From Nitrospirota bacterium (GTDB lineage Bacteria; Nitrospirota; UBA9217), in contig CAWIYV010000011.1 of assembly GCA_963840455.1 (NCBI GenBank), positions 533,066 through 597,065 on the forward strand: a DNA stretch of 64,000 nt, in the 5' to 3' direction. The notes beneath the pieces were generated by a model. That model worked only from the letters and a program-made list of their open reading frames with translations, ran no database searches and was not told the origin of the DNA. A program made the translations under genes and the position numbers. Numbering within the stretch: position 1 is the stretch's first letter; the number at the start of each line of letters is the position of its first letter. This document shows positions 40,875 through 64,000 of this stretch, piece after piece.

Positions 40875-43595
40875 CTACGGTCCCGTCTGCCCCGCTGCCT
40901 GTCTCCGCAGCACCGCCTTCAGCGCCTCCATGGACAGCAGCACGACCGCGCTGATAGCCATGACTGTGGCAAGGTCCTTAAACGTGGGAAGCCTGATCCC
41001 GAAGGTCTCGCGCAGCGCAGGGATCTGGATAAGTCCGAAGGCCAGCACCAGTTCCCAAAAGATCGCCAAGAGCAGCCACTTGTGGGGCGGCGCCTTGAAG
41101 ATGCTGTACTTGAGCGAGCGGAAGCTCATGGCGATGACCAGCTCGACCACGATGAAGAGGAAGAACATCTCGGTCCGCATGTGTTCGATCTCTCCCAGGT
41201 CATGGAAGAAGAGCCAGAAGAAAAGCGGAGCCTCCACGACGAGCGCCAGCAGGATGAAGGTCATCACTTCCCGGGTGAACACGCTTTCCTTCGGGTCCCG
41301 CGGCGGCCGCTGCATGATGTCCGGGTCGGGCGGCGACACGCCCAGGGCGAGAGCCGGCAGGCCATCGGTCGCCAGGTTGATGTAGAGGATGGCGGCGGGC
41401 AGGAGCGGCAGATATTCCGGCCCCATCATCAGCACCACGCCGCCGATGACGGCCACCTCGGTGATGTTGGCGCGCAGGAGATAGGTGAGATACTTCTTGA
41501 TGTTGTCGTAGATCCAGCGGCCGCGCTCGATCGCCGAAACGATGGTGGCGAAGTTGTCGTCCGTCAGCACCATGTCCGCCGCCTCCTTCGTCACCTCGGT
41601 CCCGGTGATGCCCATGGCGATGCCGATGTCGGCGTGCTTCAGCGCCGGGGCGTCGTTCACGCCGTCACCGGTCATGGCCACCACGTCGCCGCGCTGCTTC
41701 CAGGCCTTCACGATCTTGAGCTTGTCCATGGGCGACACGCGTGCGTAGACGGTGACGGTCTGCACGATCGCGGCGAACGCTTCGTCCGACAACTTCTCCA
41801 GTTCCTCCCCCGTGAGGACCCGGTCGCCCTCCTGGTGAATGCCCATCTCCCGGGCAATGGCCACGGCAGTAAGCTTGTGGTCGCCGGTGATCATGACCGG
41901 TTTGATGTGCACCTGCTTGCAGACCCGGATCGCCTCAATGGCCTCGGGCCGAGGCGGATCCATCATGCCGGCAAGGCCGAGGAAGACCATGTCGTTCTCC
42001 ACATCATCCTCGGACAAGGCGGCGCCCGCCGGCAGGTCGCGGGAGGCCAGGCCGAGCACACGCAGAGCATCCTTTGCCATGCTCTCATTCGCGGCGAGTA
42101 TGGCATCCCGGCCCTCGGGCGTGAGCGCACGCGGCCCGCTCTCCTCCATCACATGGCTGCACCGCCCCAACACCAGCTCAGGGGCTCCCTTCATGCAGGC
42201 GGTGCGCTGTCCGGCCTTTTCATGGATCGTGGTCATGCGCTTCCGTTCCGAACTGAAGGGGATCTCCTCCACCCGCGGGCTCCCGAGCCTCGTCTCGCGA
42301 ACGCGCATGTCCGCCTTGGCCGCAGCCACGACGAGCGAGCCTTCGGTGGGATCTCCGGTGACGCGCCACTGTCCGTCCTTCTCCTGCAGGTCCGAATCGT
42401 TGCACAGGACCCCGCACTTGAGGAACTCCTCGAGGGGACGGTTCCCGACAGCCTTGAGAGTCTCTCCGCGCGCGGTGAACCCGCCCTCCGGCGCGTACCC
42501 CGCCCCGCTTACCTCGATCATCGTGCCCGGCAGATACAACTTCCGGACGGTCATCTCTCCCCGCGTGAGCGTGCCGGTCTTGTCGGTGCAGATCACCGTG
42601 GTGCAGCCCAGCGTTTCAACAGCAGGCATCTTGCGCACCAGCGCGTGCTCCTTCGCCATCTGGCGCATACCGATGGCGAGCGCGCCGGTCACGATGGCGG
42701 CGAGGGCCTCGGGAACCGCGGCAACGGCGAGGGCGATGGCGAACATGGTGATCGTCACGATGAAAGGCAGTTCAACGGTCCCCTTGGTGAGATATTCACG
42801 GGCGATGCTGATGCCCGCGACCAGGATGCAGATGCCGAGGGCGATCATGCCGAGCCATCTGCCGATCTCCTCGGTCCGCTTCTCCAGCGGCGTCTTCTCC
42901 GTCTTGACCGTGGAGACTTCCTCGGCGATCTTGCCGAACTCGGTCCCCATGGCCGTTGCGGTGACCACGGCCCTTCCCCGGCCGTAGGTGACCGTCGTTC
43001 CCGTAAAGACCATATTCCGCCGGTCGTTGACCCGCGTCGCTTCAGGGAGCGCGTCCGCGGACTTGCCCGCGGGCATGGATTCTCCGGTGAGCGATGCCTC
43101 GTCGCACTTCAGAGAGTGCCCCTCCACAATGCGGCCGTCAGCCGGGATCTTGTCGCCTGCCTCGAGGACCATGATGTCGCCGGGCACCAGGTCCTTCGAC
43201 GGCACATCCTCCTCCCGTCCGGCCCGCAGGACCGTGATCGTCGGGGAGAGCATCTTCTTGAGCGCCTCGATCGCGCGCTCGGCGCGGTACTCCTGGATGA
43301 AGCCGAGGACCGCCACGAAGACCACGATCACGGCAATGATGGCCGCGTCCATGACCTCGCCGACCAGCGCGGACAGCGCAATGGCGACCAGCAGGATGAT
43401 GACCAGCACGTTCTTGAACTGACCCAGGAACAGGGCAAAGGGCGAGACGCCCTCCTCCTTCCGGAGCTCGTTCGGACCGTACTGACCCAGCCGCCGGGCC
43501 GCCTCCGCCGCGGAGAGGCCCTTCCGCGCGTCTGTTTTCAGCTCTGCGATGACCTGGGCTGATTCGCGTGCATGCCATGCCTGTTGTGTCATTCG
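40875..43595 (-). CDS. P-type cation-transporting ATPase (PIIA Ca2+/Mg2+-type)
   Basis: Phosphorylation motif ICTDKTGTLT, plus TGDHKLTA, MTGDGVNDAPALK and 10 predicted TM helices. Start set at MTQQAW (GGAGA RBS); an alternative start lies 17 codons upstream. Confidence 0.9.
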   Translation of the reverse strand, partial: RMTQQAWHARESAQVIAELKTDARKGLSAAEAARRLGQYGPNELRKEEGVSPFALFLGQFKNVLVIILLVAIALSALVGEVMDAAIIAVIVVFVAVLGFIQEYRAERAIEALKKMLSPTITVLRAGREEDVPSKDLVPGDIMVLEAGDKIPADGRIVEGHSLKCDEASLTGESMPAGKSADALPEATRVNDRRNMVFTGTTVTYGRGRAVVTATAMGTEFGKIAEEVSTVKTEKTPLEKRTEEIGRWLGMIALGICILVAGISIAREYLTKGTVELPFIVTITMFAIALAVAAVPEALAAIVTGALAIGMRQMAKEHALVRKMPAVETLGCTTVICTDKTGTLTRGEMTVRKLYLPGTMIEVSGAGYAPEGGFTARGETLKAVGNRPLEEFLKCGVLCNDSDLQEKDGQWRVTGDPTEGSLVVAAAKADMRVRETRLGSPRVEEIPFSSERKRMTTIHEKAGQRTACMKGAPELVLGRCSHVMEESGPRALTPEGRDAILAANESMAKDALRVLGLASRDLPAGAALSEDDVENDMVFLGLAGMMDPPRPEAIEAIRVCKQVHIKPVMITGDHKLTAVAIAREMGIHQEGDRVLTGEELEKLSDEAFAAIVQTVTVYARVSPMDKLKIVKAWKQRGDVVAMTGDGVNDAPALKHADIGIAMGITGTEVTKEAADMVLTDDNFATIVSAIERGRWIYDNIKKYLTYLLRANITEVAVIGGVVLMMGPEYLPLLPAAILYINLATDGLPALALGVSPPDPDIMQRPPRDPKESVFTREVMTFILLALVVEAPLFFWLFFHDLGEIEHMRTEMFFLFIVVELVIAMSFRSLKYSIFKAPPHKWLLLAIFWELVLAFGLIQIPALRETFGIRLPTFKDLATVMAISAVVLLSMEALKAVLRRQAAGQTGP

Positions 43596-43628
43596 ATTCT
43601 CCTGTCGCCCAATGGTTGCTGCTGGAAC

Positions 43629-43672
43629 AAAAAAGACCTTTACCACGGTTGTTCCTTAACGTGGTAAAGGTC
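43629..43672 (-). terminator. strong intrinsic-terminator hairpin ~35 nt upstream of the P-type ATPase start
   Basis: Plus strand AAAAAA-GACCTTTACCACG-(12 nt loop)-CGTGGTAAAGGTC. Perfect 13-bp stem then U6 on the minus-sense RNA. Confidence 0.55.
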
Positions 43673-50745: not shown

Positions 50746-52212
50746 TTATGAATCCCAATCCAGCAGCCGTTTCTGGCCTTCTAGCTTCCTGATGTCCGTC
50801 ACGTCCTGGCTCACTTCGAGCGTCCCCCGGTACGCCCCCTTCTCGTCGCGCACCGCGAAATACTGGATCAACAGGAACCTGCCCTTCATCTGGATCCAGA
50901 AATCAGCTTTGTCGCGCCTGCCTGCCCGGAACTCATCCAGGATCTTCTGCACCATGCCAAAGCTCTTGGGCGGGTGGCAGTTCTGGACCTTCCGGCCGAT
51001 GACGCCGGGGCTGCGCGGGAAGATGCGGTCCTTCGTCGCGGAGTAGTACCGAACCTCGTCCTTCTCGTCAACGAAGGAAATATCCACCGGCATATGCTTC
51101 AGAAGCATATTGACCTGCTCCGCGGTCATTACCCCGGTGTCGAGCATGACCTCACTTTCCTGGCCGGCGGGCCGTTCCTTCGCCTCTTCGGCGCTCATAG
51201 TCCAGTCCGCCTCCGGCCTGATCCATGCATAGCCGATCTCCTCCTCGCCCTGCCGCACCTTGCCCCACTCCTTGTCGGTCAGGAGGTCCTTCGCCATGGG
51301 GAAGAGGATGTGCTCTTCCTTATAGATCATGTCGCGCATGCTCTTCGACAGGTATTGCAGCGTGCTCATCACATCGGGAACGAGCGCGTCCCTGACGCCG
51401 GCCTTAGCGCTCTTCACGGCCACGCGGATGTCGTCGTGGAGCGCCCACATGACCTGCGAAGGCCCGGTGATGCCATGGACCTCGAGCACCGGGAACAGCT
51501 GGTTCTCCTTCCGGAGGTAATGAAGGTCGATGGTGCTGAGCTGTTCGACGAGCTTTGCCAGCACCTCCCGCTCCTTTTCAAAGGCAGCCTTTTCCGGAGC
51601 TTCGCCGAGCCTCGCCAGGACGTGGTCCAGCCCGTGCAAGATGCCCTCAGCGGCCCGGTTCTCGAGCATATAGGTATGGAGCGGATGGCCCGGCGGGACC
51701 ACCGGTGCGTCCTGCGCTGAAAGCGACTCCTTGAACACCTCCACGTGCACATCGCAGAGCCGTTTCACCTCGCTCTCGGGCATTCCCTCTGCCATGAGCC
51801 GCTGCTCCATCTTCGCGATCTCGGACGGATCGATGTCCTTGATGAGCTCGTGGAACCGGTGCTTGAGAACGGACATCTCAACGTCTTTGTGCAGGTCCCG
51901 GATGATGTCCTTCAGCAGCTCCTGGCGGGCATCGGCGTCCATGAGCGGGGCGCTCCCGGCCGTCGCGGACCCGATCGCCACGTCCGTGCCGGTCCGCTTC
52001 CTGATCTCCGCCGCGATATCCGCCAGCAGCGCGGTCAGTTCGATGTTGCCGATGGATGCTGCCTGCGCAACCGTCGCCACCTTTCCCACGGTCTTCCGCA
52101 TGACCGCGTTTTCCAGCAGCTTGAACTTGGGCGAGCGGGCGATCAGGAATTCCATCAGGAAGGGGTATTCCTTCAGCAGGTCGTCGATCTTCGTGTTGGC
52201 ATTCAGCTCCAT
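50746..52212 (-). CDS. DUF1858/DUF438-hemerythrin-PAS sensory protein
   Basis: N-terminal DUF1858-like segment (IDDLLKEYPFLMEFL). Central hemerythrin-like His/Glu-rich helices. C-terminal PAS-like region. This architecture is common in anaerobes. Confidence 0.6.
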   Translation of the reverse strand: MELNANTKIDDLLKEYPFLMEFLIARSPKFKLLENAVMRKTVGKVATVAQAASIGNIELTALLADIAAEIRKRTGTDVAIGSATAGSAPLMDADARQELLKDIIRDLHKDVEMSVLKHRFHELIKDIDPSEIAKMEQRLMAEGMPESEVKRLCDVHVEVFKESLSAQDAPVVPPGHPLHTYMLENRAAEGILHGLDHVLARLGEAPEKAAFEKEREVLAKLVEQLSTIDLHYLRKENQLFPVLEVHGITGPSQVMWALHDDIRVAVKSAKAGVRDALVPDVMSTLQYLSKSMRDMIYKEEHILFPMAKDLLTDKEWGKVRQGEEEIGYAWIRPEADWTMSAEEAKERPAGQESEVMLDTGVMTAEQVNMLLKHMPVDISFVDEKDEVRYYSATKDRIFPRSPGVIGRKVQNCHPPKSFGMVQKILDEFRAGRRDKADFWIQMKGRFLLIQYFAVRDEKGAYRGTLEVSQDVTDIRKLEGQKRLLDWDS

Positions 52213-52273: not shown

Positions 52274-52932
52274 TCATGATATGCCAGGGCAGTTCGCAGA
52301 GCTATGATGCAGATCAGGAGGAACGAGAAAACGGCAGGCGGCTACTTCCCGCTCCTGCCTTCGATGAGGAGATAGGTGTCCTGCTTGACAAAGCGTGTTC
52401 CGGTCGAACCGCGCGCCGTTGACCTTCTCCACGAGGGGCGCGAAGAAGTCCTGCCGTTTGCGGTGCGACCGGTCCTTCGAATAGACCATCTCGAGGAGGC
52501 AGAACCGGCCGCCGGGCTTCATCACCCGGCTGATCTGGCTGAGCGCCTGGTCCTGGAACTCGAAGGGCAGCGCGCAGCAGAGGAAGCAGGCCACGACCCA
52601 ATCGAACTGGTCCGGAGGGATCGAGGATATGGTGCAGACATCGTCCTGAACGAACAGGACCGGACAGGACGCTCCGTCCGCTCACGCCGGGCATGCTGGA
52701 GCATGGCAGGGCTGAAGTTGAGGGCGGTCAGGTGTGTCACTCCCGGAGGGTAGTAGCGCAAATTCCGTCCGGTGCCCGCCCCCACCTCGAGTACGTTTAC
52801 CGATACGCCGGACAGGAGCTGGGGCCGCCATTTGCGGTACTGCATCTCCCAAGGAAGATCAAGGATGTCGTAGAACCAGGCGGTAATATTGTACCGCTTC
52901 AGGTTCTCGAGGTTCGTTGGATGGAGGTCCAT
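52274..52932 (-). pseudogene. class I SAM-dependent methyltransferase, frameshifted
   Basis: N-terminal ORF (52522..52932) has SAM-binding motif VLEVGAGTGRNL and ...SPAML..AR. The C-terminal ORF (52274..52594, other frame) continues as FVQDDVCTISSIPPDQFDWVVACF...MKPGGRFCLLE. The shift lies near 52650-52700. Confidence 0.6.
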
Positions 52933-54084: not shown

Positions 54085-54981
54085 CTAATAGCTGAATCTG
54101 ACACCTACGCTGAAGATATTATCGTTACTGCTCGTGCCCGGGACGTTCGAATCACTCATCTGATGATCATATTGAGCATCTATAAACCATCGTTTGGCAA
54201 ACTCCTGCGCAACACCCGCGGAAATGGTATTCGACGTAACCTGGAAACCTGCAGGCTCATCATAATCGCGCACGAGGTGGTTGTACCCGAGAAGAAGCGT
54301 TGTTTTTGGCAGAACTAGGTAACCTCCCCAGATCCCGATGAAGTTTCCCGTGTAGGTGAAGAACGCCGAATCTGCATTGTTCTTTTCATAGTAATAGCTT
54401 TCCTTCAGCCAGAGTAACGGCGTGAACTGCTCCTTGAAGGTCACTATCGGGCCGAACGCTGAGCTGTCTCGCAGTGAATCCGTGTATCGTTTGATGGCGC
54501 CATTGATCGCGAGTCTGACCGTGACGATATCGCCCAGATTCTTATCAATACCGGCGGTCAAGCCTCCGATGGTGTTATCGAATTCGTTAAAGCTGTTGTA
54601 AGAAGTGTGCTGTGCGCTGCCAATCAGGAACAGGTATGTCCCGGAGGCTATGTCGGTCGAACCGCCGATGTCCGCGAAATAATTGATCGAGAAATCGCTC
54701 TTCGATTGCACTCCCGTATCTTGCGGGATACTGCCTCCCATGCCGCCCATACCCCCCGGGCCCATTACAGCGCCCATCATCCCGGGACCGGTTGCAGGCA
54801 TTCCCGCCGTGCCGCCGCGCTTGTCTGATAAGAGACCTACAACATTGTCTTCATAGGTACCTCTAATTGCCACGTCATAGAATATTCCGGCCTGCGCGAC
54901 TGAAGCAATAGTGAGATACAGGAACAGAACAATGCAGCCGGTGATCGCCGCATTTACCGCCCGATGAGATCGCATGTGCAT
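54085..54981 (-). CDS. putative outer-membrane beta-barrel protein
   Basis: Signal peptide. Gly-rich loop. Alternating amphipathic strands. C-terminal ...VGVRFSY aromatic terminus. AGGAGAGG RBS. Confidence 0.5.
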   Translation of the reverse strand: MHMRSHRAVNAAITGCIVLFLYLTIASVAQAGIFYDVAIRGTYEDNVVGLLSDKRGGTAGMPATGPGMMGAVMGPGGMGGMGGSIPQDTGVQSKSDFSINYFADIGGSTDIASGTYLFLIGSAQHTSYNSFNEFDNTIGGLTAGIDKNLGDIVTVRLAINGAIKRYTDSLRDSSAFGPIVTFKEQFTPLLWLKESYYYEKNNADSAFFTYTGNFIGIWGGYLVLPKTTLLLGYNHLVRDYDEPAGFQVTSNTISAGVAQEFAKRWFIDAQYDHQMSDSNVPGTSSNDNIFSVGVRFSY

Positions 54982-55152
54982 TTCCTCTCCTACGCTCACG
55001 CCAGTATACTTTTGTTGTGTATATCAGAAATAATAAAAATCGACTTGTTATAAGTATAACAGGGCAAAATATTAAAAAAGGCAGCCGCATGGTGCGACTG
55101 CCATATGAGGTTGGTTTGCTTATGGTCATGTAAACAGCGGATCTTCGTTACG

Positions 55153-55845
55153 TTACCGTTTTGGCCCGCCCATGCCAGGCCCCATGCCGGAACCATGATC
55201 CATTCCCATACCGCCGTGGTCCATTCCCGGCCCGGTGCCCATGTGATCACGGTCGTGCGACATATCCCGGTCATGCTGCCTGGTCCTGTCTCTGTCCATG
55301 GCCCGCGTCGCGTTGTCCGCGGCCTTGTCGGGAGGAGTTCCGGACTTTAAGTCCCCGGCATAAGCAGTCGTGGCGGCCGTTATACTGGCGGCTCCGGCCC
55401 CTTGATTGATCCCATTGGACATTACCTGCGAGGTCCTGTCGGCCGGGGCGCCTGCTGCCACAGTCTTGCCGAAAGTGTTCGTCATCTGCACCGTTTCCCG
55501 CGCAGTGTACCTATGCTGTATCGCCTCCCCTGCCACCGAGGCTGCATCTTTCCTCGCAGCGGGTCCCGCTGCCTCTATGGACCTCGCGACCTCGGCCAGG
55601 TCCTTGCCTTTCATGCCCTGGTTGATGGATGCTTCGACCACGCGGTAGGCATGATCAACAGGCACACCCTTGTCCACCAGGCTCTGCAGCGTCTTCACTG
55701 CCTGGGAGTGGTCCTGGGCATTCAACTTCTTTTCCGTAGCCTGCCTGTCAATGTTGGTCTTTGCTTCATCCACGGTAAGAGCGAATGCCGTCATACCGAA
55801 CAGCAGAATGCTCCCTGTCACAATTATCGTCAGTAGCTTTTTCAT
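55153..55845 (-). CDS. secreted protein with helical repeats and a Met/Gly/His-rich C-terminal tail
   Basis: Signal peptide MKKLLTIIVTGSILLFGMTAFA. C-terminus HDRDHMGTGPGMDHGGMGMDHGSGMGPGMGGPKR. GGAGG RBS. Confidence 0.6.
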   Translation of the reverse strand: MKKLLTIIVTGSILLFGMTAFALTVDEAKTNIDRQATEKKLNAQDHSQAVKTLQSLVDKGVPVDHAYRVVEASINQGMKGKDLAEVARSIEAAGPAARKDAASVAGEAIQHRYTARETVQMTNTFGKTVAAGAPADRTSQVMSNGINQGAGAASITAATTAYAGDLKSGTPPDKAADNATRAMDRDRTRQHDRDMSHDRDHMGTGPGMDHGGMGMDHGSGMGPGMGGPKR

Positions 55846-55892
55846 GTTGGCACCTCCTCGATTATCTAGCTTGATTTAAGGACTGCTCCTGC

Positions 55893-56810
55893 TTACTTCC
55901 GCCCGCCCATGCCTGACATGCCTCCCATGCCGCCGGAGGCAGGCTCGTGCATCGTCCCTCCTCCGGACCTGTCCTGCATCTGCATGTCACGCATCCCTTC
56001 GCCCCGCTCCATGCGGGAGTTCATGCCGGAAACAACATCGTTCATGGGGCGATCCTTCCTGAGCTCGTTGACCATGTAGCGCTCCATGGCCTCCAGGTCT
56101 CCTTCGGAATAGCCCTTGTCCACTGCCGTATGGACCATTTTCGCGGCCTGTCCGGCAGTCATGCCGCTCCCAGCAAAGGTGGTCATCGTATCCACCGCCC
56201 GGCTGAACAACCCGAGCGATCCTTTGCGATCCCTTACTTTCTCTCCGGTCTTCATGATAGCATCCTGCGGGATCGACTTTTCCATCGCTCTCGCCGCGGT
56301 CTCGATCGCATCATCGTACGCTTTTGCATGGGGTGCCTTTACGCCCCCGCTCTCCACCCTGTTCACGAGCGGTTTGGCAGCGGCAAGGTACCCGGAAAGC
56401 CGTTGCGTAACGCCTGATATCTTCTCCGCAGGTACGCCCTTGGCAAGCCCCTGCTCGGTCCGGTCAAGGATGAGCCTGACCGGCAAGCCCTGTCCTTTTG
56501 CCCTCGTTGCAGTTTCGAGGAAACCCTCAACATGGCGGCTCTCTACGCCCTGATCCAAGCCGCGGGTGATAATGATGGAGACATCCTCGGCCGGAATGCC
56601 CGCAGCCACCGCCTGACCGGCCTTGGTCAGTATGCCGGCCTTGGCTTCCTTCGAGAGCGAGGACCTTTCTACAGCGATCCTTGCCTGTTCAAGATGCTTC
56701 GATCCCGCCTCTTCCGCCCTGGCGGGCGGCGCCGCCGTCAGGAGCGCTGCTGCGGCCAGCAGCAGGACAATCAGAATGTTAAAAATGCCCTCTGTCATGT
56801 TCCTTTTCAT
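55893..56810 (-). CDS. paralogous secreted protein with a Met/Gly-rich C-terminal tail
   Basis: Signal peptide. Repeated ~35-aa G.P.E....G motifs similar to 55153..55845. C-terminus MQMQDRSGGGTMHEPASGGMGGMSGMGGRK. Confidence 0.6.
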   Translation of the reverse strand: MKRNMTEGIFNILIVLLLAAAALLTAAPPARAEEAGSKHLEQARIAVERSSLSKEAKAGILTKAGQAVAAGIPAEDVSIIITRGLDQGVESRHVEGFLETATRAKGQGLPVRLILDRTEQGLAKGVPAEKISGVTQRLSGYLAAAKPLVNRVESGGVKAPHAKAYDDAIETAARAMEKSIPQDAIMKTGEKVRDRKGSLGLFSRAVDTMTTFAGSGMTAGQAAKMVHTAVDKGYSEGDLEAMERYMVNELRKDRPMNDVVSGMNSRMERGEGMRDMQMQDRSGGGTMHEPASGGMGGMSGMGGRK

Positions 56811-57466
56811 GTCTTGACCCTCATCACAGCATTTTTGTTTCCGAAGCCGTCATCGCGGTAGGTCTCCGCGTTCGGGTCGGTCACCCATGCCTTTCCATCC
56901 ACAATGAACATGTAACTGTACTCCCCGGGCTTCAGAGGTATGCTGACCGTCCAAACCCCGTTTTCCTGCTTCGTGAGCATATGTGCATCAGCCTTCCACT
57001 TATTGAACGTGCCCGCAACCGCCACTCGATGAGCTTCCGGCGCGTGCAGGTTCATGGTCACCGTCACGACTTGTTCCTGCCGGGGAACGGCTGCGGTCTC
57101 AACAGGCGCGTTCCGGGTGCGAACGACCTGGGTGAAGACCAGGGCGAAGAGCACCGCAGCCGCAAATGCCGTGGCCATGTTCCACCTGAGCACCCGTCCC
57201 TTGAGCAGGAAATCCCGTATCCGGTTCGTGATCGTCGCTTTTCGTGCGGGCAGCCGCCGCATGACCTCTGCGGTAAAGAAGGGAGGGGCCTGCATCCTCT
57301 CGCTCGTCTCGATCGTACGGAGCGCTCCCGTAATACCGTCGAGCTCTTCCTTAAACGCAGGATCCGACTGAACTCGGTCCAAAAGCACCTTCTTTTCGTC
57401 AGGGCCGAGGTCCCCGTCCAGCATCCGGTGAATAAGTTCCCTATCGATTTCTTGTCTATCCGTCAT
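56807..57466 (-). CDS. anti-sigma factor (single TM) with a periplasmic AMPK-beta/CBM48-like glycogen-binding-type domain
   Basis: N-terminal anti-sigma helix region and one TM segment. C-terminal VAVAGTFNKW...GVWTVSIPLKPGEYSYMFIVDGKAWVTDP...DDGFGNKNAV. Overlaps the ECF sigma gene stop (translational coupling). Confidence 0.7.
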   Translation of the reverse strand: MTDRQEIDRELIHRMLDGDLGPDEKKVLLDRVQSDPAFKEELDGITGALRTIETSERMQAPPFFTAEVMRRLPARKATITNRIRDFLLKGRVLRWNMATAFAAAVLFALVFTQVVRTRNAPVETAAVPRQEQVVTVTMNLHAPEAHRVAVAGTFNKWKADAHMLTKQENGVWTVSIPLKPGEYSYMFIVDGKAWVTDPNAETYRDDGFGNKNAVMRVKT

Positions 57467-58023
57467 AAGCCAACCCCCATGCCTTCCAGGAGCTTTCTGA
57501 GCATCTCTCTTCCCCTGTGTGCACGTACTTTGAGAGCGCTGACCGAGACACCCAATGCGTCGGAGATCTCCTGATAATCAAGCCCCTCAATATGCTTCAG
57601 GACGATCACCTCGCGGTAGTCAGGGGGCAGCCCGTTCAGTGCGTGCTGGACCGCGTCCCCGGTCTGGCGGCAGGAAGCAATCTTCTCCGGCGAGGGGTCC
57701 GGCCCTGCGGTATAGTCGCAGATCTCATCTACCGGCACGGTCTCCTTGCCTGCTCTGAAATGATCGCGGCACTTGTTCACCACGATCCGGTACAGCCAGG
57801 AGGAAAACCGGGAATTGAACTTAAAATCCCCGAGTGCATTATAGGCTGAAATAAAGCCTTCCTGCGCCATATCCTTGGCCGCATCAGAATCACCGAGCAT
57901 CCGAAAGGCGATATTGTATGCCATGTCCTTGTACCTGTCCACCAGCACTGCATATTGGTCGGAGTCGCCGGCGAGGCACTTTCTGATAACGGCATATTCT
58001 TCTTCAACGCTATCTGCGCTCAT
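57463..58023 (-). CDS. ECF-family RNA polymerase sigma factor
   Basis: Region 2 (YKDMAYNIAFRMLGD...DMAQEGFISAY...FSSWLYRIVVN) and region 4 (LPPDYREVIVLKHIEGLDYQEISDALGVS). Confidence 0.9.
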   Translation of the reverse strand: MSADSVEEEYAVIRKCLAGDSDQYAVLVDRYKDMAYNIAFRMLGDSDAAKDMAQEGFISAYNALGDFKFNSRFSSWLYRIVVNKCRDHFRAGKETVPVDEICDYTAGPDPSPEKIASCRQTGDAVQHALNGLPPDYREVIVLKHIEGLDYQEISDALGVSVSALKVRAHRGREMLRKLLEGMGVGL

Positions 58024-58058
58024 GTTGTACCTATTAGACGATGATTGACTCGAAAAGG

Positions 58059-58446
58059 TTACAGCCCGGGATTCTCTTCCGGTACAATAAGAACGGAATT
58101 CTTCCCGCCGAACCCGTCGTCAATTTCCGGGACAGAAGGGTCTGGCTGCCACTTTTTCCCGTCTACGATGAACAGATATTCGTACCGCCCTTCAGGGAGG
58201 GGGATGATAATGTTCCAGACACCCTTATTATCGGCTCCGGACAACCTGTTCTTATGAGTGTCCCAGGCATTGAAAGCTGCCGGCAATCGCGACACTGCTT
58301 GCCTCTGGCGCATAAAAGGTGAAAGAGACGCCCTCTTTCGTCAGCTCCGGGCCCAGGTGCTTCGGTCCGCAGGCTGATATGAGCGAGCAAAAGAACAGGA
58401 TCGATATCATGGACAGGCGCGGTTTCATGGTTATTGTAGATTTCAC
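58059..58446 (-). pseudogene. lipoprotein consisting of a CBM48-like domain, interrupted by a 1-bp frameshift
   Basis: ORF 58252..58446 (lipobox LISAC, ...VSFTFYAPEASSVAIAGSF) and ORF 58059..58313 (NAWDTHKNRL...GVWNIIIPLPEGRYEYLFIVDGKKWQPDP) join as ...AIAGSFNAWDTH... if one T is removed from a TTT run near 58265. Confidence 0.55.
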
Positions 58447-58530
58447 TATATGTTTATGATACCGCTCGTTTCACAAGGTTTGCAAGGTAAACATTGATTT
58501 ACATGGCCTGGACAGGGAAAACAGGACGGC

Positions 58531-58564
58531 AAAAAAGCGGCAGCCGGACCTTTATCCGGCTGCC
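58531..58564 (-). terminator. intrinsic terminator after the Met-rich lipoprotein gene
   Basis: Plus strand AAAAAA-GCGGCAGCCGGA-ccttta-TCCGGCTGCC. 9-10 bp GC stem then U6 on the minus-sense RNA, 32 nt after the stop. Confidence 0.6.
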
Positions 58565-58595
58565 CTAAGTTTACAGCAGTTTAAGTAAGGATGCT

Positions 58596-60338
58596 TTAGA
58601 TCGCCCCGTTGGTGGTGCTCAACTGGTTGATGAGCGTTTGCATGTTGGTCGTGGTAAGGGTTGATCTGTTCATGGCAGAACCCAGGAACGAAGTCATTGC
58701 ACTCGCCAATCCGCTGGTCCCTGCCGTGGACTGCATCATGGTACCGCCGCCACCCATCATGCCACCACCCATACCACCCATGGTTATCTGGGTGCTTCCC
58801 ATCTGACCGTTCATGATGCCGTCCGAAGCATCGTTCATCATGGACAAGATCAGGGCTGCGGGGTCCGTCATGCTGATGGTCTGTGCATACTGAGACATGG
58901 CGGCAATGGCAACGCCGTAGTTCTTCATGTCCACAGTAGCAGTACCGCCGGATCCTAGTACTGCCGCATTCATCGGGACGGTTTCAAGTATGTTGGACAC
59001 CATGAAGTAGTTGCCAACCGCCGTGTTTGCTGCCGTAATATTGGCATCAGTCATACCGCCTGCCATTGCCTGGGCACGGGCCTGCGCCATAGACGTAAGA
59101 GGAGTCATCTGAATGCCCGTGATCGTGGCTCCGCTTGAGATGGTTGGAATGACTGCGGTCATCACATCGCCGGCCGACATGGTCATGGTTGTGCCGGTTG
59201 CCAGGTTGTTATACGACCCCCCGCTCATCTTGAGCATGACCGGCCCGGAATAGGCGCCGAGGGACAGGCTGAAGCTGCCCATGCTGTTCGTGGTCCCGCT
59301 AGCCAATTGAGCGCCCAGAGAGCCGCCACTCACTGCGTATGCCATGACCGTGGCGTTGCCCATCGTTCCGTTGAAGACCGATCCGCCGACCATCCCGCTC
59401 ATCGGCGTTCCTCCGCCACTCGGAATGCTGCCGGTCGCCGAAGTAGTCAACTTGTTCATGAGCGCCGTCATGTCTCCAGCAGTTACGCCTGACTTATTCA
59501 GGGTGGAGGTCATGAACGTCGCCATTTCCGTGGCGAGCCCGCTCGTCCCCGCAGTTGTCGTCATCATGGAGCTGCCGGCCATCATTCCGCCCATCATGAC
59601 CGGGGTACCTCCCATCAAGCCGTTCATAACGCCGTCCGACGCGTCATTCATCATGGCCGTGACCATGTTGGAGGAAGAGGTCATTCCCATGTCCTTCGCG
59701 GATTGCGACATTGCCGCGATGGCCATGCCGTAGTTTTTCATGTCCTGGGTCGCGGTGCCGCTTGATCCGGACACAAGCGGGCTCATGGGTGGCGTATGCA
59801 GGATATCGTTCACGATGAAGTAATTTCCTATTGCGGTGTTTGCTGCCGTGATATTTACATCCATCATGCCGCCCGCCATATTATTTGCCATTGCCTGGGC
59901 CATGGAGGTCAGAGGGGTTACTTGAATTCCGGTAACCGTCGAGCCGGTAGATAGCGTTGTCATAACAGCGGTCATCACATCACCGGGAGCCATGGATACG
60001 GTAACGCCGGTCGCCTCATCCACGTATGTTCCACCGCCCATCTGAAGCATAATGGAGCCTGCATAGTCGCCAACTAATATATTGAAATTTCCCTGACTGT
60101 CCGTTGCTCCACTGGCGAGTTGCATGCCCATGGTCCCATTGGTGATGGCATATGCCGTTACTGTCCCTCCGCTAATCGGTCCCTTGACCGCCGTACCACT
60201 GATCATTCCGTTAGCGCCTGTTGTTCCTCCAGGAGTCGTCGCACTGCTCCCTCCTCCGCCACAACCATAAAGAAGCGACATTGACCCGATTAAGAGAGTG
60301 AGAGTTAACATTACCTTGAGTTTCTTGTGCTTTTGCAT
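58596..60338 (-). CDS. extremely methionine-rich lipoprotein with an internal tandem duplication
   Basis: Signal peptide plus LLYGC lipobox. 69 Met in 580 residues by hand count (~12%). Also Gly/Thr/Ala/Ser-rich, no Cys after the lipobox, 1 His. Two ~250-aa repeat units (GNFNILVGDYAGSIMLQM... versus GSFSLSLGAYSGPVMLKM...). Confidence 0.7.
   Translation of the reverse strand: MQKHKKLKVMLTLTLLIGSMSLLYGCGGGGSSATTPGGTTGANGMISGTAVKGPISGGTVTAYAITNGTMGMQLASGATDSQGNFNILVGDYAGSIMLQMGGGTYVDEATGVTVSMAPGDVMTAVMTTLSTGSTVTGIQVTPLTSMAQAMANNMAGGMMDVNITAANTAIGNYFIVNDILHTPPMSPLVSGSSGTATQDMKNYGMAIAAMSQSAKDMGMTSSSNMVTAMMNDASDGVMNGLMGGTPVMMGGMMAGSSMMTTTAGTSGLATEMATFMTSTLNKSGVTAGDMTALMNKLTTSATGSIPSGGGTPMSGMVGGSVFNGTMGNATVMAYAVSGGSLGAQLASGTTNSMGSFSLSLGAYSGPVMLKMSGGSYNNLATGTTMTMSAGDVMTAVIPTISSGATITGIQMTPLTSMAQARAQAMAGGMTDANITAANTAVGNYFMVSNILETVPMNAAVLGSGGTATVDMKNYGVAIAAMSQYAQTISMTDPAALILSMMNDASDGIMNGQMGSTQITMGGMGGGMMGGGGTMMQSTAGTSGLASAMTSFLGSAMNRSTLTTTNMQTLINQLSTTNGAI
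58600..60175 (-). repeat. intragenic tandem duplication (two ~0.75-0.8 kb units) inside the Met-rich lipoprotein gene
   Basis: Protein-level repeat units ~45% identical with conserved blocks (DVMTAV, TGIQ.TPLTSMAQA, ITAANTA.GNYF, DMKNYG.AIAAMSQ, MMNDASDG.MNG). Unit boundaries are approximate. Confidence 0.6.
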
Positions 60339-60386
60339 TTGTTACATCCCCCTAAATTAAACTAATTTTACTGCCATTGTGATTTA

Positions 60387-60412
60387 GACGAGGTAACGAC
60401 TAAAAGGTTACA
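60387..60412 (-). promoter_or_regulatory. candidate ECF-sigma-type promoter TGTAAC-N16-CGTC upstream of the Met-rich lipoprotein gene
   Basis: Minus-strand sequence TGTAACcttttagtcgttacctCGTCTAA. Predicted start site ~40 nt before the ATG at 60338. GGGGGA RBS follows. Confidence 0.4.
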
Positions 60413-61039
60413 AATAACTTCACGACGAGTTATTCCTTAAATATCGTCTCATCTATCTTTGAATACTGCAAAACAGGATAATTGTCGATTTCAAGCAGCG
60501 GATAGTTGAAAAAAGAGCCCACTCGACGCATGCCAGATTATTGGGATTTCCTTCGGGAAGAACAACGGCTTGACGTGATGGTATTAGGTCTACGTAAGGC
60601 TAGTTCTCTGAAGAAACTACACTCCAGTGACCAAAAATCAAATGTTGAAGGATGAGGCTCTTTCTTATCTCTTTGCCGCTTGCCTCCTCCCAGGCTAAAC
60701 ATCTGCGCCCTGCCGACTGTTTCGATGTTATGCAACTCTGTATGTTCCGACTCTGCGCAAACGAAGTCAATAATAAAAGCGAAATGCATGGATAAATAGA
60801 TTGCGACTGTTGCACATTTAAACGATGTTGTACTCGCAGTCATATATAATCGCCGCTTCCTGCCGCTATTATCGCAACTTCAAATCAGCGCAAGACAAAT
60901 CCATACATGTTTACCTGTAACCTTTTATGATTTGTTTCGTCTCATATGGCATCAACCCGGAAGAAGAATATTTTATCGGAGCTCCAAAGAAAGAATAATA
61001 TTTTTTATTCTAACGTGTTTACTGCGAGGGAGTCGCATT

Positions 61040-61540
61040 ATGAAAATGAAGAGGTTATTGATTGCATATTTTCTGAGCGGTGTGTTTGCTGTTTTTGGAC
61101 TGTTCTCTCCGGTTGCTGGCAATGCGGGGATAAATGTAGACATTAATGTTCCCCTGCCCGACATCGCCATAGCCGGACCGCCAGCCATGGTGGTTGTCCC
61201 CGGCGCCTATGTGTACTTTGCCCCTGATGTTGAAGCTGACCTTTTTTTCTATCACGGATACTGGTACCGGCCCCATCAGGGAGGATGGTATTATTCGCTC
61301 GGATACAACGGGCCCTGGGGCCGCATAACGATCGGGAATGTGCCGCCGCCGCTGGTCAGTCTGCGGCCCGGCTATCGGAATGTACCTCCAGCCTATGAGC
61401 GCATGCCCTACCCTGTGGTACAGAGGTACTGGAGACAATGGGAAGAGGAACGGTACTGGGATTCCTATCAGAGAAGTGATGAGCATCCAGCGCCCCATCG
61501 GGGTCATGGTATGGGTATGGGCAGGGGAATGGGAATGTAG
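61040..61540 (+). CDS. secreted Tyr/Trp/Pro-rich protein with a C-terminal GHGMGMGRGMGM tail
   Basis: Start set at MKMKRLLIAYFLSGVFAVFG (signal peptide); the ORF is open from 60932. C-terminal (MG)n run. Confidence 0.5.
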   Translation: MKMKRLLIAYFLSGVFAVFGLFSPVAGNAGINVDINVPLPDIAIAGPPAMVVVPGAYVYFAPDVEADLFFYHGYWYRPHQGGWYYSLGYNGPWGRITIGNVPPPLVSLRPGYRNVPPAYERMPYPVVQRYWRQWEEERYWDSYQRSDEHPAPHRGHGMGMGRGMGM

Positions 61541-63985: not shown

Positions 63986-64000
63986 GGTCAGCAGAATGAT

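What the first reader, a model, noticed from the sequence alone, without database searches (positions are those of the whole stretch)
54085..61540. ECF sigma / anti-sigma centred envelope cluster encoding multiple methionine-rich secreted proteins
On one strand the cluster reads: Met-rich lipoprotein; CBM-like lipoprotein; ECF sigma; anti-sigma; two paralogous secreted helical-repeat proteins with Met/Gly tails; and an OMP. A divergent secreted protein with an (MG)n tail follows. An ECF-type promoter lies upstream of the first gene. The Met-rich proteins are nearly Cys-free and His-poor. Met-only clusters (MxxM / MGM) are classic Cu(I)/Ag(I) ligands and also act as sacrificial sinks for HOCl/ROS. 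An ECF-controlled periplasmic Met-rich system would therefore be a candidate metal or oxidant defence island. I do not recognise the cluster as a characterised system.
Basis: partly seen in the sequence, partly recalled or inferred. Interest (0 to 1): 0.7.

Follow-up and report, generated by a model that had tools for sequence, protein, structure and literature searches.

The report
ECF sigma regulon of methionine-rich envelope proteins
An uncultured Nitrospirota bacterium carries a conserved, undescribed alarm circuit: a sigma factor and a membrane anti-sigma factor with a sugar-binding-type sensor domain switch on a set of secreted methionine-rich proteins, whose job (metal buffering, oxidant scavenging or protein holding) is still unknown.

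Summary
All eight genes are present. The ECF-type promoter is one of three exact copies of TGTAACCTTTT-N11/12-CGTCT in the 64 kb window. The copies sit upstream of the Met-rich lipoprotein A, the sigma gene and the divergent gene H.

The motif and the core order (CBM48 lipoprotein, ECF sigma, CBM48 anti-sigma, helical-repeat protein E, variable small protein, outer-membrane protein) recur in about 25 Nitrospirota genomes. There, every extra promoter copy with a complete gene behind it drives a secreted Met/Gly(-His)-rich protein.

In distant high-GC metagenome contigs, sigma, CBM48 anti-sigma, a CBM48 envelope protein and an E-like protein again sit together. The same promoter type precedes the E-like gene there. 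So these four form the conserved module, and the Met-rich cargo is a Nitrospirota elaboration.

No protein except the sigma and the CBM48 domains matches Pfam or NCBIfam. E folds as a helical solenoid with a disordered tail.

The function is unproven. No msrPQ, copA or cus genes lie consistently nearby. One relative sits beside a heavy-metal ATPase island. I favour soft-metal buffering (about 0.35) over an oxidant sink or a chaperone role. I rate it a new variant of ECF signalling, of moderately high interest.

The parts
60386..60412 (-). ECF promoter copy 1 (TGTAACCTTTT-N11-CGTCT), 47 nt upstream of gene A
   Evidence: Exact motif. A motif of the same type precedes every A homologue in L001, L006, L008, L009, L021 and L022.
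58596..60338 (-). A: Met-rich lipoprotein. 580 aa, 69 Met, lipobox LYGC. Two tandem repeats of about 265 aa.
   Evidence: The repeats are 56% identical. The AF2 model has pLDDT 78.5; each repeat is a transthyretin/CarboxypepD_reg-like beta-sandwich followed by a Met-rich helical domain. More than 832 homologues, no Pfam family.
58539..58564 (-). Intrinsic terminator after A
   Evidence: Stem of 11 bp (8 GC) followed by a T tract.
58059..58428 (-). B: CBM48 lipoprotein, about 116 aa once repaired. Frameshifted in this window by an extra G at 58277.
   Evidence: Intact in L036-L039. Conserved upstream of the sigma gene in most loci. It lies outside the sigma promoter's transcription unit.
58036..58063 (-). 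ECF promoter copy 2 (TGTAACCTTTT-N12-CGTCT), autoregulatory. It ends 12 nt before the sigma start codon.
   Evidence: Conserved at the same place in nearly all loci.
57463..58023 (-). C: ECF sigma factor, 186 aa
   Evidence: Sigma70_r2 3.8e-18, Sigma70_r4_2 7.9e-18, TIGR02937 1.3e-30.
56807..57466 (-). D: single-pass anti-sigma factor, 219 aa, no Cys. Cytoplasmic RsiW-like anti-sigma domain and periplasmic CBM48 domain.
   Evidence: AMPK1_CBM 2.3e-14. phmmer match to RsiW 5wuq at 4e-5 over residues 10-77, and to AMPK beta CBMs. W157 and W194 are invariant in 21 homologues. The start overlaps the sigma stop codon.
55893..56810 (-). E: secreted helical-hairpin repeat protein, 305 aa, with a disordered Gly/Met tail (residues 277-305). 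The start overlaps the stop of D (ATGA).
55153..55845 (-). F: secreted helical protein, 230 aa, with a Met/His/Asp/Gly tail (…MSHDRDHMGTGPGMDHGGMGMDHGSGMGPGMGGPKR)
   Evidence: Distant relative of the C-terminal unit of E (hhalign probability 96%). In other genomes this slot holds different small secreted proteins with similar tails.
55080..55102 (-). Intrinsic terminator after F
   Evidence: Stem of 10 bp (7 GC) followed by TTTTTT.
54085..54999 (-). G: probable outer-membrane beta-barrel with an N-proximal Gly/Met loop. The likely true start is the ATG at 54975-54981.
   Evidence: BBP2_2 8e-4, below the gathering threshold. C-terminal ...VRFSY. Conserved downstream in about 20 loci. The loop is variable.
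60916..60942 (+). ECF promoter copy 3 (TGTAACCTTTT-N11-CGTCT), about 95 nt upstream of H
   Evidence: The H homologue in L001 has the same motif 28 nt upstream.
61040..61540 (+). H: secreted Trp/Tyr/Pro-rich protein with the tail HPAPHRGHGMGMGRGMGM
   Evidence: No family hit. The homologue in L001 is 60% identical and its tail is GHGMGMGHMGH.

Best explanation
This is an autoregulated ECF sigma/anti-sigma envelope-signalling system of a type not yet described.

**Shown by sequence and comparison**
- Sigma C is encoded with a single-pass anti-sigma D. D has an RsiW-like cytoplasmic domain and a CBM48 fold on its periplasmic side.
- A paralogous CBM48 domain sits on lipoprotein B. B has its own promoter region.
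- GTAACC-N15-CGTCT promoters precede the sigma operon (C-D-E-F, perhaps reading through to G), lipoprotein A and gene H.
- The quartet of sigma, CBM48 anti-sigma, CBM48 envelope protein and E-like protein is conserved in distant lineages.

**Inferred**
- B and the periplasmic domain of D together sense an envelope cue. The cue is probably a glycan, or a change in the contact between B and D.
- D is then inactivated and C is released. C transcribes its own operon and the cargo genes.
- The cargo is lipoprotein A, periplasmic E, F and H, and barrel G. All carry flexible Met/Gly(/His/Asp)-rich segments.
- These segments most likely act as a high-capacity periplasmic buffer for soft metal cations of the Cu(I)/Ag(I) type, with His adding Zn/Cu(II) capacity.
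- E, translationally coupled to D, possibly also feeds back on the sensor, as ZraP and CpxP do on theirs.
For: **Regulon**
- Three exact promoter copies lie in the window, all correctly oriented.
- The motif is conserved upstream of the sigma gene in nearly all of 30 Nitrospirota loci.
- It also lies upstream of all A and H homologues and of other secreted Met/Gly/His-rich genes.

**Module**
- The order B-C-D-E-x-G occurs in about 25 genomes.
- In L040, L041 and L044, sigma (31-38% identical), CBM48 anti-sigma, a protein of about 485 aa ending in CBM48, and an E-like protein lie together. L043 carries a CBM48 domain followed by an E-like gene.
- GTAACY-N14-CGTC occurs upstream of the E-like gene in L040, L043 and L044. 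It lies 185-200 nt upstream of sigma in L040 and L044. L041 has a GTAACG variant upstream of sigma.

**Sensor**
- The CBM48 hits are above the gathering threshold.
- Both Trp that AMPK beta1 needs for glycogen binding (W100, W133; PMC6274970) are invariant in the D family.

**Metal reading**
- The tails combine Met with His and Asp: MDH and HxxM-like motifs in F, GHGMGMG in H.
- Homologous tails in the E superfamily switch between Met-rich and His-rich forms such as HERHERHERH.
- Met is among the better conserved residues in A and E. In A it lies at i, i+4 spacing on predicted helices: M146, M150, M154, M158.
- L035 places the cluster directly after MerR, ArsR, an HMA P1B-type ATPase, a two-component system and a ZraP/Spy-like Met-rich protein.
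- One A homologue lies next to a CzcCBA-type pump.
- No methionine sulfoxide reductase gene is nearby.
Against: - There are no expression, start-site or binding data.
- Metal genes are adjacent in only two of about 30 contexts. The neighbourhood census shows no enrichment.
- Other A-family contexts are unrelated: kdp, ABC transport, transposases.
- In the wider E superfamily most tails are simply Gly/Arg-rich without Met or His. Metal ligands are therefore not a family-wide requirement.
- The Met loop of G is not conserved.
- The Lys that AMPK needs for glycogen binding (K126) is Met in D, so the ligand may not be a glucan, or may not be a sugar.
- B is frameshifted in this very window, although this is probably an assembly error.
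Confidence: 0.35

Rival explanations
1. Oxidant sink. The Met-rich proteins are sacrificial periplasmic scavengers of HOCl or ROS, as MrpX is in the SigF/NrsF/MsrPQ system of Azospira suillum. The ECF system would sense oxidative damage to the envelope.
For: - An ECF-controlled periplasmic Met-rich protein has a direct precedent (PMC4436054).
- A has 12% Met.
- L001 carries a secreted 144-aa protein with 24% Met in the F slot, which resembles MrpX.
- A second ECF sigma with an AhpD/CMD-like gene lies just beyond the window end in the close relative L036.
Against: - No MsrP/YedY, MsrQ or MsrA/B is in window 35-64 kb, in the annotated contexts, or among the 25 commonest families of the flanking census. 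Without recycling, a sink is used only once.
- The anti-sigma is not NrsF/DUF1109.
- The hosts appear to belong to anaerobic lineages such as Thermodesulfovibrio.
- His/Asp-rich and purely Gly/Arg-rich homologous tails do not fit a Met-oxidation role.
Confidence: 0.15
2. Envelope proteostasis. The regulon encodes ATP-independent periplasmic holdases, and the flexible Gly/Met tails and Met-lined helices bind unfolded envelope proteins. The comparison is with the GGM tail of GroEL, the Met bristles of the SRP54 M domain, and Spy/CpxP/ZraP. The sigma would then work like sigma-E, as a folding-stress responder.
For: - The architecture is that of an autoregulated envelope-stress ECF system, with an outer-membrane protein in the locus.
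- E is a helical solenoid with a disordered Gly/Met tail.
- The E superfamily keeps the Gly-rich tail but not the Met or His. That fits a physical rather than a ligand-specific role.
- E is translationally coupled to the anti-sigma, like a feedback chaperone.
- The resemblance to GroEL (GGM)4M and to ZraP rests on my own knowledge and was not tested here.
Against: - There are no matches to the Spy/CpxP (LTxxQ), Skp, SurA or DegP families.
- Extreme Met content with almost no charged residues, as in A, and His-rich tails are unusual for known periplasmic chaperones.
- No protease or foldase lies in the regulon.
Confidence: 0.2
3. Glycan-linked surface remodelling. The CBM48 domains sense an envelope or extracellular polysaccharide, and the regulon proteins are structural surface or matrix components (low-charge, Gly/Thr/Ser/Met-rich) rather than defence proteins.
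For: - Two CBM48 domains with conserved sugar-stacking Trp form the sensor.
- G resembles BBP2 and PEP-CTERM-associated barrels, which are linked to exopolysaccharide loci.
- A has a surface-protein-like composition: 15% Gly, 14% Thr, 10% Ser, and only 33 charged residues in 580.
- Many tails end in a conserved basic dipeptide, which could be a sorting or recognition tag.
Against: - No glycosyltransferase, polysaccharide-export or PEP-CTERM/exosortase genes are in the loci.
- The hits of G are below the family thresholds.
- This reading does not explain why independent, unrelated regulon members are all Met-rich.
Confidence: 0.15

Closest known systems
SigF/NrsF - MsrP(YedY)Q - MrpX reactive-chlorine response (Azospira suillum, Caulobacter, Brucella; PMC4436054)
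   Same: An ECF sigma with a small local regulon whose hallmark product is a secreted Met-rich protein. The promoters lie divergently around the sigma operon. The -35 element GTAACC resembles the published SigF motif (from memory, not tested).
   Different: - The anti-sigma here is a single-pass RsiW-like protein with a CBM48 domain, not the multi-pass NrsF/DUF1109.
- No MsrP/MsrQ is nearby.
- The Met-rich proteins are large folded lipoproteins or helical proteins with tails, not a small charged peptide.
- The conserved target is E, not a reductase.
ZraP/ZraSR and Spy/CpxP periplasmic stress modules of Enterobacteria
   Same: A helical periplasmic protein carries a Gly/Met/His C-terminal tail (ZraP ends ...GMGMGYGGCGGGGHMGMGHW, from memory). 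It is induced by the system it belongs to, and it is a candidate feedback partner of the sensor.
   Different: - Control is by an ECF sigma, not a two-component system.
- E and F do not match the LTxxQ/Spy family.
- E is a solenoid of about 240 residues, not a hairpin dimer.
PcoE/SilE metal sponges and PcoB/CopB Met-rich outer-membrane proteins of copper/silver resistance islands
   Same: Disordered periplasmic Met/His segments, and an outer-membrane barrel with an N-proximal Met-rich stretch. This is resemblance by composition only.
   Different: - No sequence homology was found.
- There is no multicopper oxidase, CopA, CusCBA or CusRS-type regulator.
- The hosts are Nitrospirota and the regulator is an ECF sigma.
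Sigma-E/RseA/RseB, and FecI/FecR/FecA cell-surface signalling
   Same: - A single-pass anti-sigma whose periplasmic domain works with a second envelope protein.
- Autoregulation.
- In distant relatives the CBM48 partner domain is fused to a putative outer-membrane barrel. That recalls an outer-membrane transducer contacting the anti-sigma.
   Different: - There are no RseB, FecR, TonB-dependent transducer or PDZ-protease genes in the locus.
- The sensor fold is CBM48.
- The barrel homology is weak (hhalign E 1.5e-3, probability 17%).

Membership tests
ECF (group IV) sigma-70 factors | Only the sigma-2 and sigma-4 domains, about 180-200 aa | tested here: met
   Sigma70_r2 3.8e-18, Sigma70_r4_2 7.9e-18, TIGR02937 1.3e-30 (above its cut-off), 186 aa.
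ECF (group IV) sigma-70 factors | Co-transcribed cognate anti-sigma, and an autoregulatory AAC(-35)/CGT(-10) promoter | tested here: met
   D overlaps the stop of C. GTAACC-N15-CGTCT lies 12 nt upstream of C and is conserved across the loci. No start-site data exist.
ECF (group IV) sigma-70 factors | Assignment to a numbered ECF group (ECF Hub classification) | not testable with these tools
   The best NCBIfam equivalogs (SigW and others) are all below their cut-offs. The main text of the classification paper mentions no CBM48/AMPK-type anti-sigma, and its supplements are not held.
Class I anti-sigma factors (RsiW/RseA-like ASD) | N-terminal anti-sigma domain followed by one transmembrane helix | tested here: met
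   phmmer match to the RsiW chain 5wuq_C at E 4.1e-5 over residues 10-77. The hydrophobic stretch WNMATAFAAAVLFALVFTQVV is visible. NF052375 'antisigma' scores 32 bits, below its cut-off of 100.
Class I anti-sigma factors (RsiW/RseA-like ASD) | Zinc-binding HxxxCxxC (ZAS) motif | tested here: not met
   D has no Cys at all.
CBM48 / AMPK-beta glycogen-binding module | Domain match above Pfam gathering scores | tested here: met
   D: AMPK1_CBM 53.8 bits (cut-off 26.8), CBM_48 46.8 bits (22.4). Repaired B: 50.7 and 51.5 bits.
CBM48 / AMPK-beta glycogen-binding module | Sugar-binding residues (AMPK beta1 W100, K126, W133) | tested here: inconclusive
   Both Trp equivalents (W157, W194) are invariant in 21 D homologues and present in B. 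The Lys equivalent is Met186 in D (residue roles from PMC6274970). Actual glycan binding is not testable here.
SigF/NrsF-MsrPQ-MrpX hypochlorite system | NrsF (DUF1109) multi-pass anti-sigma | tested here: not met
   D is a single-pass RsiW-like/CBM48 protein. No DUF1109 hit.
SigF/NrsF-MsrPQ-MrpX hypochlorite system | Periplasmic methionine sulfoxide reductase MsrP/YedY with MsrQ in the regulon | tested here: not met
   No Oxidored_molyb or Msr family is in window 35-64 kb, in the annotated contexts, or among the 25 commonest families of 136 flanking ORFs. The rest of the genome was not seen.
SigF/NrsF-MsrPQ-MrpX hypochlorite system | Small secreted peptide of about 20% Met and abundant charged residues | tested here: inconclusive
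   None in the window. L001 has a secreted protein of 144 aa and 24% Met in the F slot.
Spy/CpxP/ZraP (LTxxQ) periplasmic chaperones | Match to the family profile | tested here: not met
   No hit for E, F or H in Pfam or NCBIfam. One small slot protein from L010 gives Spy at E 0.022, far below the cut-off.
Pco/Cop/Sil/Cus copper-silver resistance determinants | Homology to PcoE/SilE, PcoB/CopB, CusF or CopA, or the presence of such genes in the locus | tested here: not met
   No family hits. An HMA P1B ATPase is adjacent only in L035.

The most novel reading that the evidence does not exclude
A widespread, undescribed class of trans-envelope ECF signalling. A CBM48 domain on the anti-sigma pairs with a second CBM48 domain that is anchored to, or fused with, an outer-membrane component. 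Together they read a glycan or envelope-integrity cue. The universally conserved output is a new family of periplasmic helical-solenoid proteins with disordered Gly-rich tails (E). In Nitrospirota this circuit has recruited a whole set of Met-rich 'sponge' proteins, giving an inducible periplasmic thioether buffer against soft metals or oxidants.
Probability: 0.3. Interest if true: 0.75.

Novelty: new variant of a known kind. Interest (0 to 1): 0.6.

Why it matters
ECF sigma/anti-sigma pairs are a main route by which bacteria sense their envelope, and most groups still lack a known signal or output. Three features make this system tractable.
- **A clean promoter code.** The promoter is conserved across phyla-level distances. 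The regulon can therefore be read directly from sequence, and the sigma could serve as an orthogonal synthetic-biology part.
- **An unusual sensor.** The anti-sigma carries a carbohydrate-binding-module fold, duplicated on a lipoprotein or barrel partner.
- **Outputs with no annotation.** These are a 618-representative helical-repeat family, a Met-rich lipoprotein family of more than 832 members, and several Met/His-tailed proteins.

If the Met-rich cargo is a metal or oxidant buffer, it would be a new envelope defence in anaerobic Nitrospirota, which are abundant in soils, sediments and groundwater. It would also give function to several large 'hypothetical' families.

Tried and rejected
- **Family searches.** Pfam and NCBIfam scans of A, E, F, H, distant E relatives and the alternative slot proteins gave no credible family.
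- **Exact-sequence contig look-ups.** The window's sigma, P0084 and the Anaeromyxobacter A homologue were not on record.
- **A-family contexts outside Nitrospirota.** Four contexts were checked for a recurrent metal or ECF link. They are inconsistent, and the ECF promoter is absent there.
- **Neighbourhood census.** A census of 136 flanking ORFs looked for Msr, Cu or RND enrichment. None was found. Only a type II P-type cation ATPase and acetyl-CoA-synthetase-like genes recur, which probably reflects lineage synteny.
- **Fusion-protein homology.** I tested whether the N-domain of the fusion protein is homologous to G. BLASTP was not significant. hhalign was weak (E 1.5e-3, probability 17%), so this is reported only as suggestive.
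- **Rfam.** The locus has no RNA family match.
- **Literature.** Searches for CBM48/AMPK1_CBM anti-sigma factors or an ECF group description found nothing relevant.
- **Chance or low-complexity artefact.** Rejected because of the exact triplicate promoter, the synteny across about 25 genomes, and the confident AF2 model of E.

Full report
**1. What is in the sequence**

On the minus strand between 54085 and 60338 lie seven genes. One more gene lies divergently on the plus strand.

- **A** (58596-60338) is a 580-aa lipoprotein (lipobox LYGC). It has 69 Met (11.9%), 90 Gly and 80 Thr, and only 33 charged residues (per-residue counts). It consists of two tandem repeats of about 265 aa that are 56% identical.
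- **C** (57463-58023) is an ECF sigma factor.
- **D** (56807-57466) overlaps the stop of C and is a single-pass anti-sigma. Residues 10-77 match the RsiW anti-sigma domain (E 4e-5). Residues about 135-218 match AMPK-beta and pullulanase CBM48 modules.
- **E** (55893-56810) overlaps the stop of D (ATGA). **F** (55153-55845) follows it. Both are secreted helical proteins ending in Met/Gly-rich tails.
- **G** (54085-54999) is a probable outer-membrane barrel. It gives a weak BBP2_2 hit and ends in ...RFSY. It has a Gly/Met-rich loop near the N-terminus.
- **H** (true start about 61040, to 61540, plus strand) is a secreted Trp/Tyr/Pro-rich protein ending HPAPHRGHGMGMGRGMGM.

Strong intrinsic terminators follow A and F.

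**2. The promoter claim**

The sequence upstream of A reads TGTAACCTTTT-N11-CGTCTAA. A search shows exactly three copies of TGTAACCTTTT-N11/12-CGTCT in the whole 64-kb window. Chance expectation is 0.16-0.17 even when three mismatches are allowed.

- Copy 1: 60386-60412(-), 47 nt before A.
- Copy 2: 58036-58063(-), ending 12 nt before the sigma start codon.
- Copy 3: 60916-60942(+), ahead of H.

AAC-N16-CGT is the canonical ECF promoter geometry. The locus therefore reads as one autoregulated sigma operon plus two satellite transcription units. B lies upstream of the sigma promoter and downstream of the terminator of A. It is therefore probably expressed independently, as one would expect of a sensor component.

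**3. Conservation**

- **The E family.** E has 83 close clusters. All are 'hypothetical' and none has a Pfam family.
- **Taxonomy and gene order.** The genome collection finds E almost only in Nitrospirota MAGs, including a Thermodesulfovibrio MAG. tblastn of the window proteins against 30 loci shows the order B-C-D-E-[variable small gene]-G in about 25 of them.
- **Accessory genes.** A is adjacent in a subset of loci and H in one.
- **The promoter motif.** GTAACY-N13-17-CGTCW sits just upstream of the sigma gene in nearly every locus. It also sits upstream of every A and H homologue.
- **Extra promoter copies.** Those in other genomes that are followed by a complete gene drive secreted proteins unrelated to A or H. 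These are again Met/Gly(-His)-rich. Examples are AMMGGGNGSDMSGGG......NMGTHPNPNMGT..., and AMMDCGMMGGHGSHADHGG....
- **The slot between E and G.** It holds different small secreted proteins in different genomes, each with an M/H/D/G tail. One in L001 has 24% Met.

This is a phylogenetic footprint of a regulon defined by Met-rich secreted products.

**4. The conserved core is wider than the Met-rich theme**

- **The E superfamily.** A full HMMER profile search with E finds 618 representatives at 50% clustering. None of the seven sampled distant members has a Pfam match, and neither of the two checked has an NCBIfam match.
- **Tail composition.** Their tails are always Gly-rich (27%). In 81 of 120 the last three residues include Arg or Lys. 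Only 51 of 120 contain three or more Met plus His. Some are His-rich (HERHERHERH) and many are Gly/Arg-rich.
- **Distant contigs.** A metagenome scan with a distant E subfamily returned high-GC contigs L040, L041 and L044. There a sigma (31-38% identical to C) is followed by a D-like CBM48 anti-sigma, then a protein of about 485 aa whose C-terminus is a CBM48 domain, then the E-like gene. The short contig L043 carries a CBM48 domain followed by an E-like gene.
- **Promoters in the distant contigs.** GTAACY-N14-CGTC occurs upstream of the E-like gene in L040, L043 and L044. It lies 185-200 nt upstream of sigma in L040 and L044. L041 has a GTAACG variant upstream of sigma.
- **The N-domain of the 485-aa protein.** It looks like a BBP2-type barrel (Pfam E 1.5e-3). 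Its homology to G is only weakly supported (hhalign E 1.5e-3, probability 17%).

So sigma, CBM48 anti-sigma, a second envelope-anchored CBM48 domain and E form the ancestral module. E is a direct sigma target. The Met-rich cargo (A, H, F and the slot proteins) is a Nitrospirota elaboration.

**5. Structures and residues**

- **A.** The model has pLDDT 78.5. Each repeat is a transthyretin/CarboxypepD_reg-like sandwich plus a helical domain. Met residues are spaced i, i+4 on predicted helices: M146, M150, M154, M158.
- **Met conservation.** Met is among the better conserved residues in A (0.84, against 0.77 mean column identity) and in E (0.71 against 0.64).
- **E versus F.** They are related only through their last helical unit (hhalign probability 96%, E 1.9e-9, 66 columns).
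- **D.** The two Trp that correspond to AMPK beta1 W100 and W133 are required for glycogen binding (PMC6274970). They are invariant in D, but the K126 equivalent is Met. A carbohydrate ligand is plausible but unproven.

**6. Function**

I looked for support in genomic context.

- **The window.** Window 35-64 kb holds pyruvate-carboxylase subunits, a type II P-type cation ATPase, an SRAP peptidase, a hemerythrin/PAS protein, a thioesterase, DUF922 and another barrel. It holds no Msr, CopA, Cus or multicopper oxidase gene.
- **The census.** A census of 136 flanking ORFs from 18 loci shows none of these among its 25 commonest families.
- **Isolated metal links.** In L035 the cluster directly follows MerR, thioredoxin, ArsR, an HMA P1B-type ATPase, an OmpR/HK pair and a ZraP/Spy-like protein with a Met-rich tail. 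One three-repeat A homologue lies beside a CzcCBA pump and a redoxin. Other A contexts are unrelated.
- **The closest published system.** SigF/NrsF-MsrPQ-MrpX (PMC4436054) shares the logic of an ECF sigma controlling a Met-rich periplasmic protein. Its defining parts, NrsF and MsrP/Q, are absent here.
- **Compositional arguments.** These mildly favour soft-metal binding over an oxidant sink. Met is mixed with His and Asp, homologous tails switch between Met and His, and no reductase is present. The Gly/Met tails are equally reminiscent of chaperone tails. That comparison rests on my own knowledge and was not tested.

I therefore commit to the following.
- The regulatory architecture: confidence about 0.85.
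- Metal buffering as the most likely output: about 0.35.
- Rivals: proteostasis 0.2, oxidant sink 0.15, glycan-linked surface remodelling 0.15.

**7. Data-quality note**

B carries a +1 frameshift at 58277 relative to four short-read contigs that are 96-97% identical and in which B is intact. A second single-base deletion at 52684 breaks a methyltransferase. All other indels are intergenic. Similar frame breaks appear in other long-read MAG loci. An assembly error is more likely than pseudogenisation, but this cannot be decided here.

**8. Verdict**

- The system is a new variant of ECF sigma/anti-sigma signalling. Its sensor architecture (paired CBM48 domains) and its conserved target family are undescribed in the literature and libraries I could search.
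- Interest is 0.6.

Noticed in passing
window 58277 and 52684: Two single-base indels break ORFs relative to four relatives at 96-97% identity. One is an extra G in B (the CBM48 lipoprotein). The other is a missing base in a SAM-methyltransferase, which is split into ORFs 52522-52932 and 52274-52594. All other indels are intergenic. This suggests assembly error rather than decay.
   Followed up: partly
window 58024-58063, and the same position in most loci: The -10 element of the sigma promoter ends only 11-15 nt before the sigma start codon, and no Shine-Dalgarno sequence is visible. The sigma mRNA is probably leaderless or nearly so.
   Followed up: no
window 60413-60915: A spacer of about 500 bp and low GC (about 44%) separates the divergent A and H promoters. 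It holds no convincing ORF (the 101-aa ORF at 60538-60843 has GC3 0.42) and no Rfam hit. In L001 the two promoters are only 88 bp apart. The spacer is present in the close relatives L036 and L037.
   Followed up: partly
C-termini of E and F (window), and of slot proteins in L010, L018, L025, L030 and L035: Many Gly-rich tails in the regulon end in a basic dipeptide: ...GGRK, ...GGPKR, ...GGRR, ...MQRR, ...GGWRR. In the E superfamily, 81 of 120 tails have Arg or Lys among the last three residues. This could be a recognition or sorting tag.
   Followed up: partly
L001 11164-11598: A secreted 144-aa protein with 24% Met (...MMGGQMMSQEMMRNMSGMMSQMNDMMQKM...) occupies the slot after E. A different barrel (weak Phenol_MetA_deg hit) follows it in place of G.
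   Followed up: partly
L035 379-6428: In a Thermodesulfovibrionales contig the cluster directly follows MerR, thioredoxin, ArsR, an HMA P1B-type ATPase, an OmpR/HK two-component pair and a 135-aa ZraP/Spy-like protein ending ...GGHMGGMMMSRGMMGSGMMMDMCPMMGW.
   Followed up: partly
window 40875-43646; L002 5449-8214; L021, L022, L025, L028 upstream of the cluster: A type II P-type cation ATPase (Cation_ATPase_N/C, about 920 aa) lies immediately upstream of the cluster in at least five related loci. In the window it is 15 kb away. This may be lineage synteny or a functional link to cation homeostasis.
   Followed up: partly
L041 3317-4774; L044 3220-4728; L040 about 2330-3650: In distant high-GC lineages the second CBM48 domain is the C-terminus of a secreted protein of about 485 aa. 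Its N-domain resembles a BBP2-type outer-membrane barrel. This may be a fusion of the roles that B and G play in the window.
   Followed up: partly
L036 594-1520 (just beyond window position 64000 in a 97%-identical strain): A second ECF sigma (201 aa) is followed by a CMD/AhpD-like gene, about 3 kb past the window end.
   Followed up: no
window 50746-52212: A 488-aa protein combines DUF1858, DUF438, hemerythrin and PAS_10 domains (a likely O2/NO or iron sensor). It lies 2 kb from the cluster and has no evident link to it.
   Followed up: no
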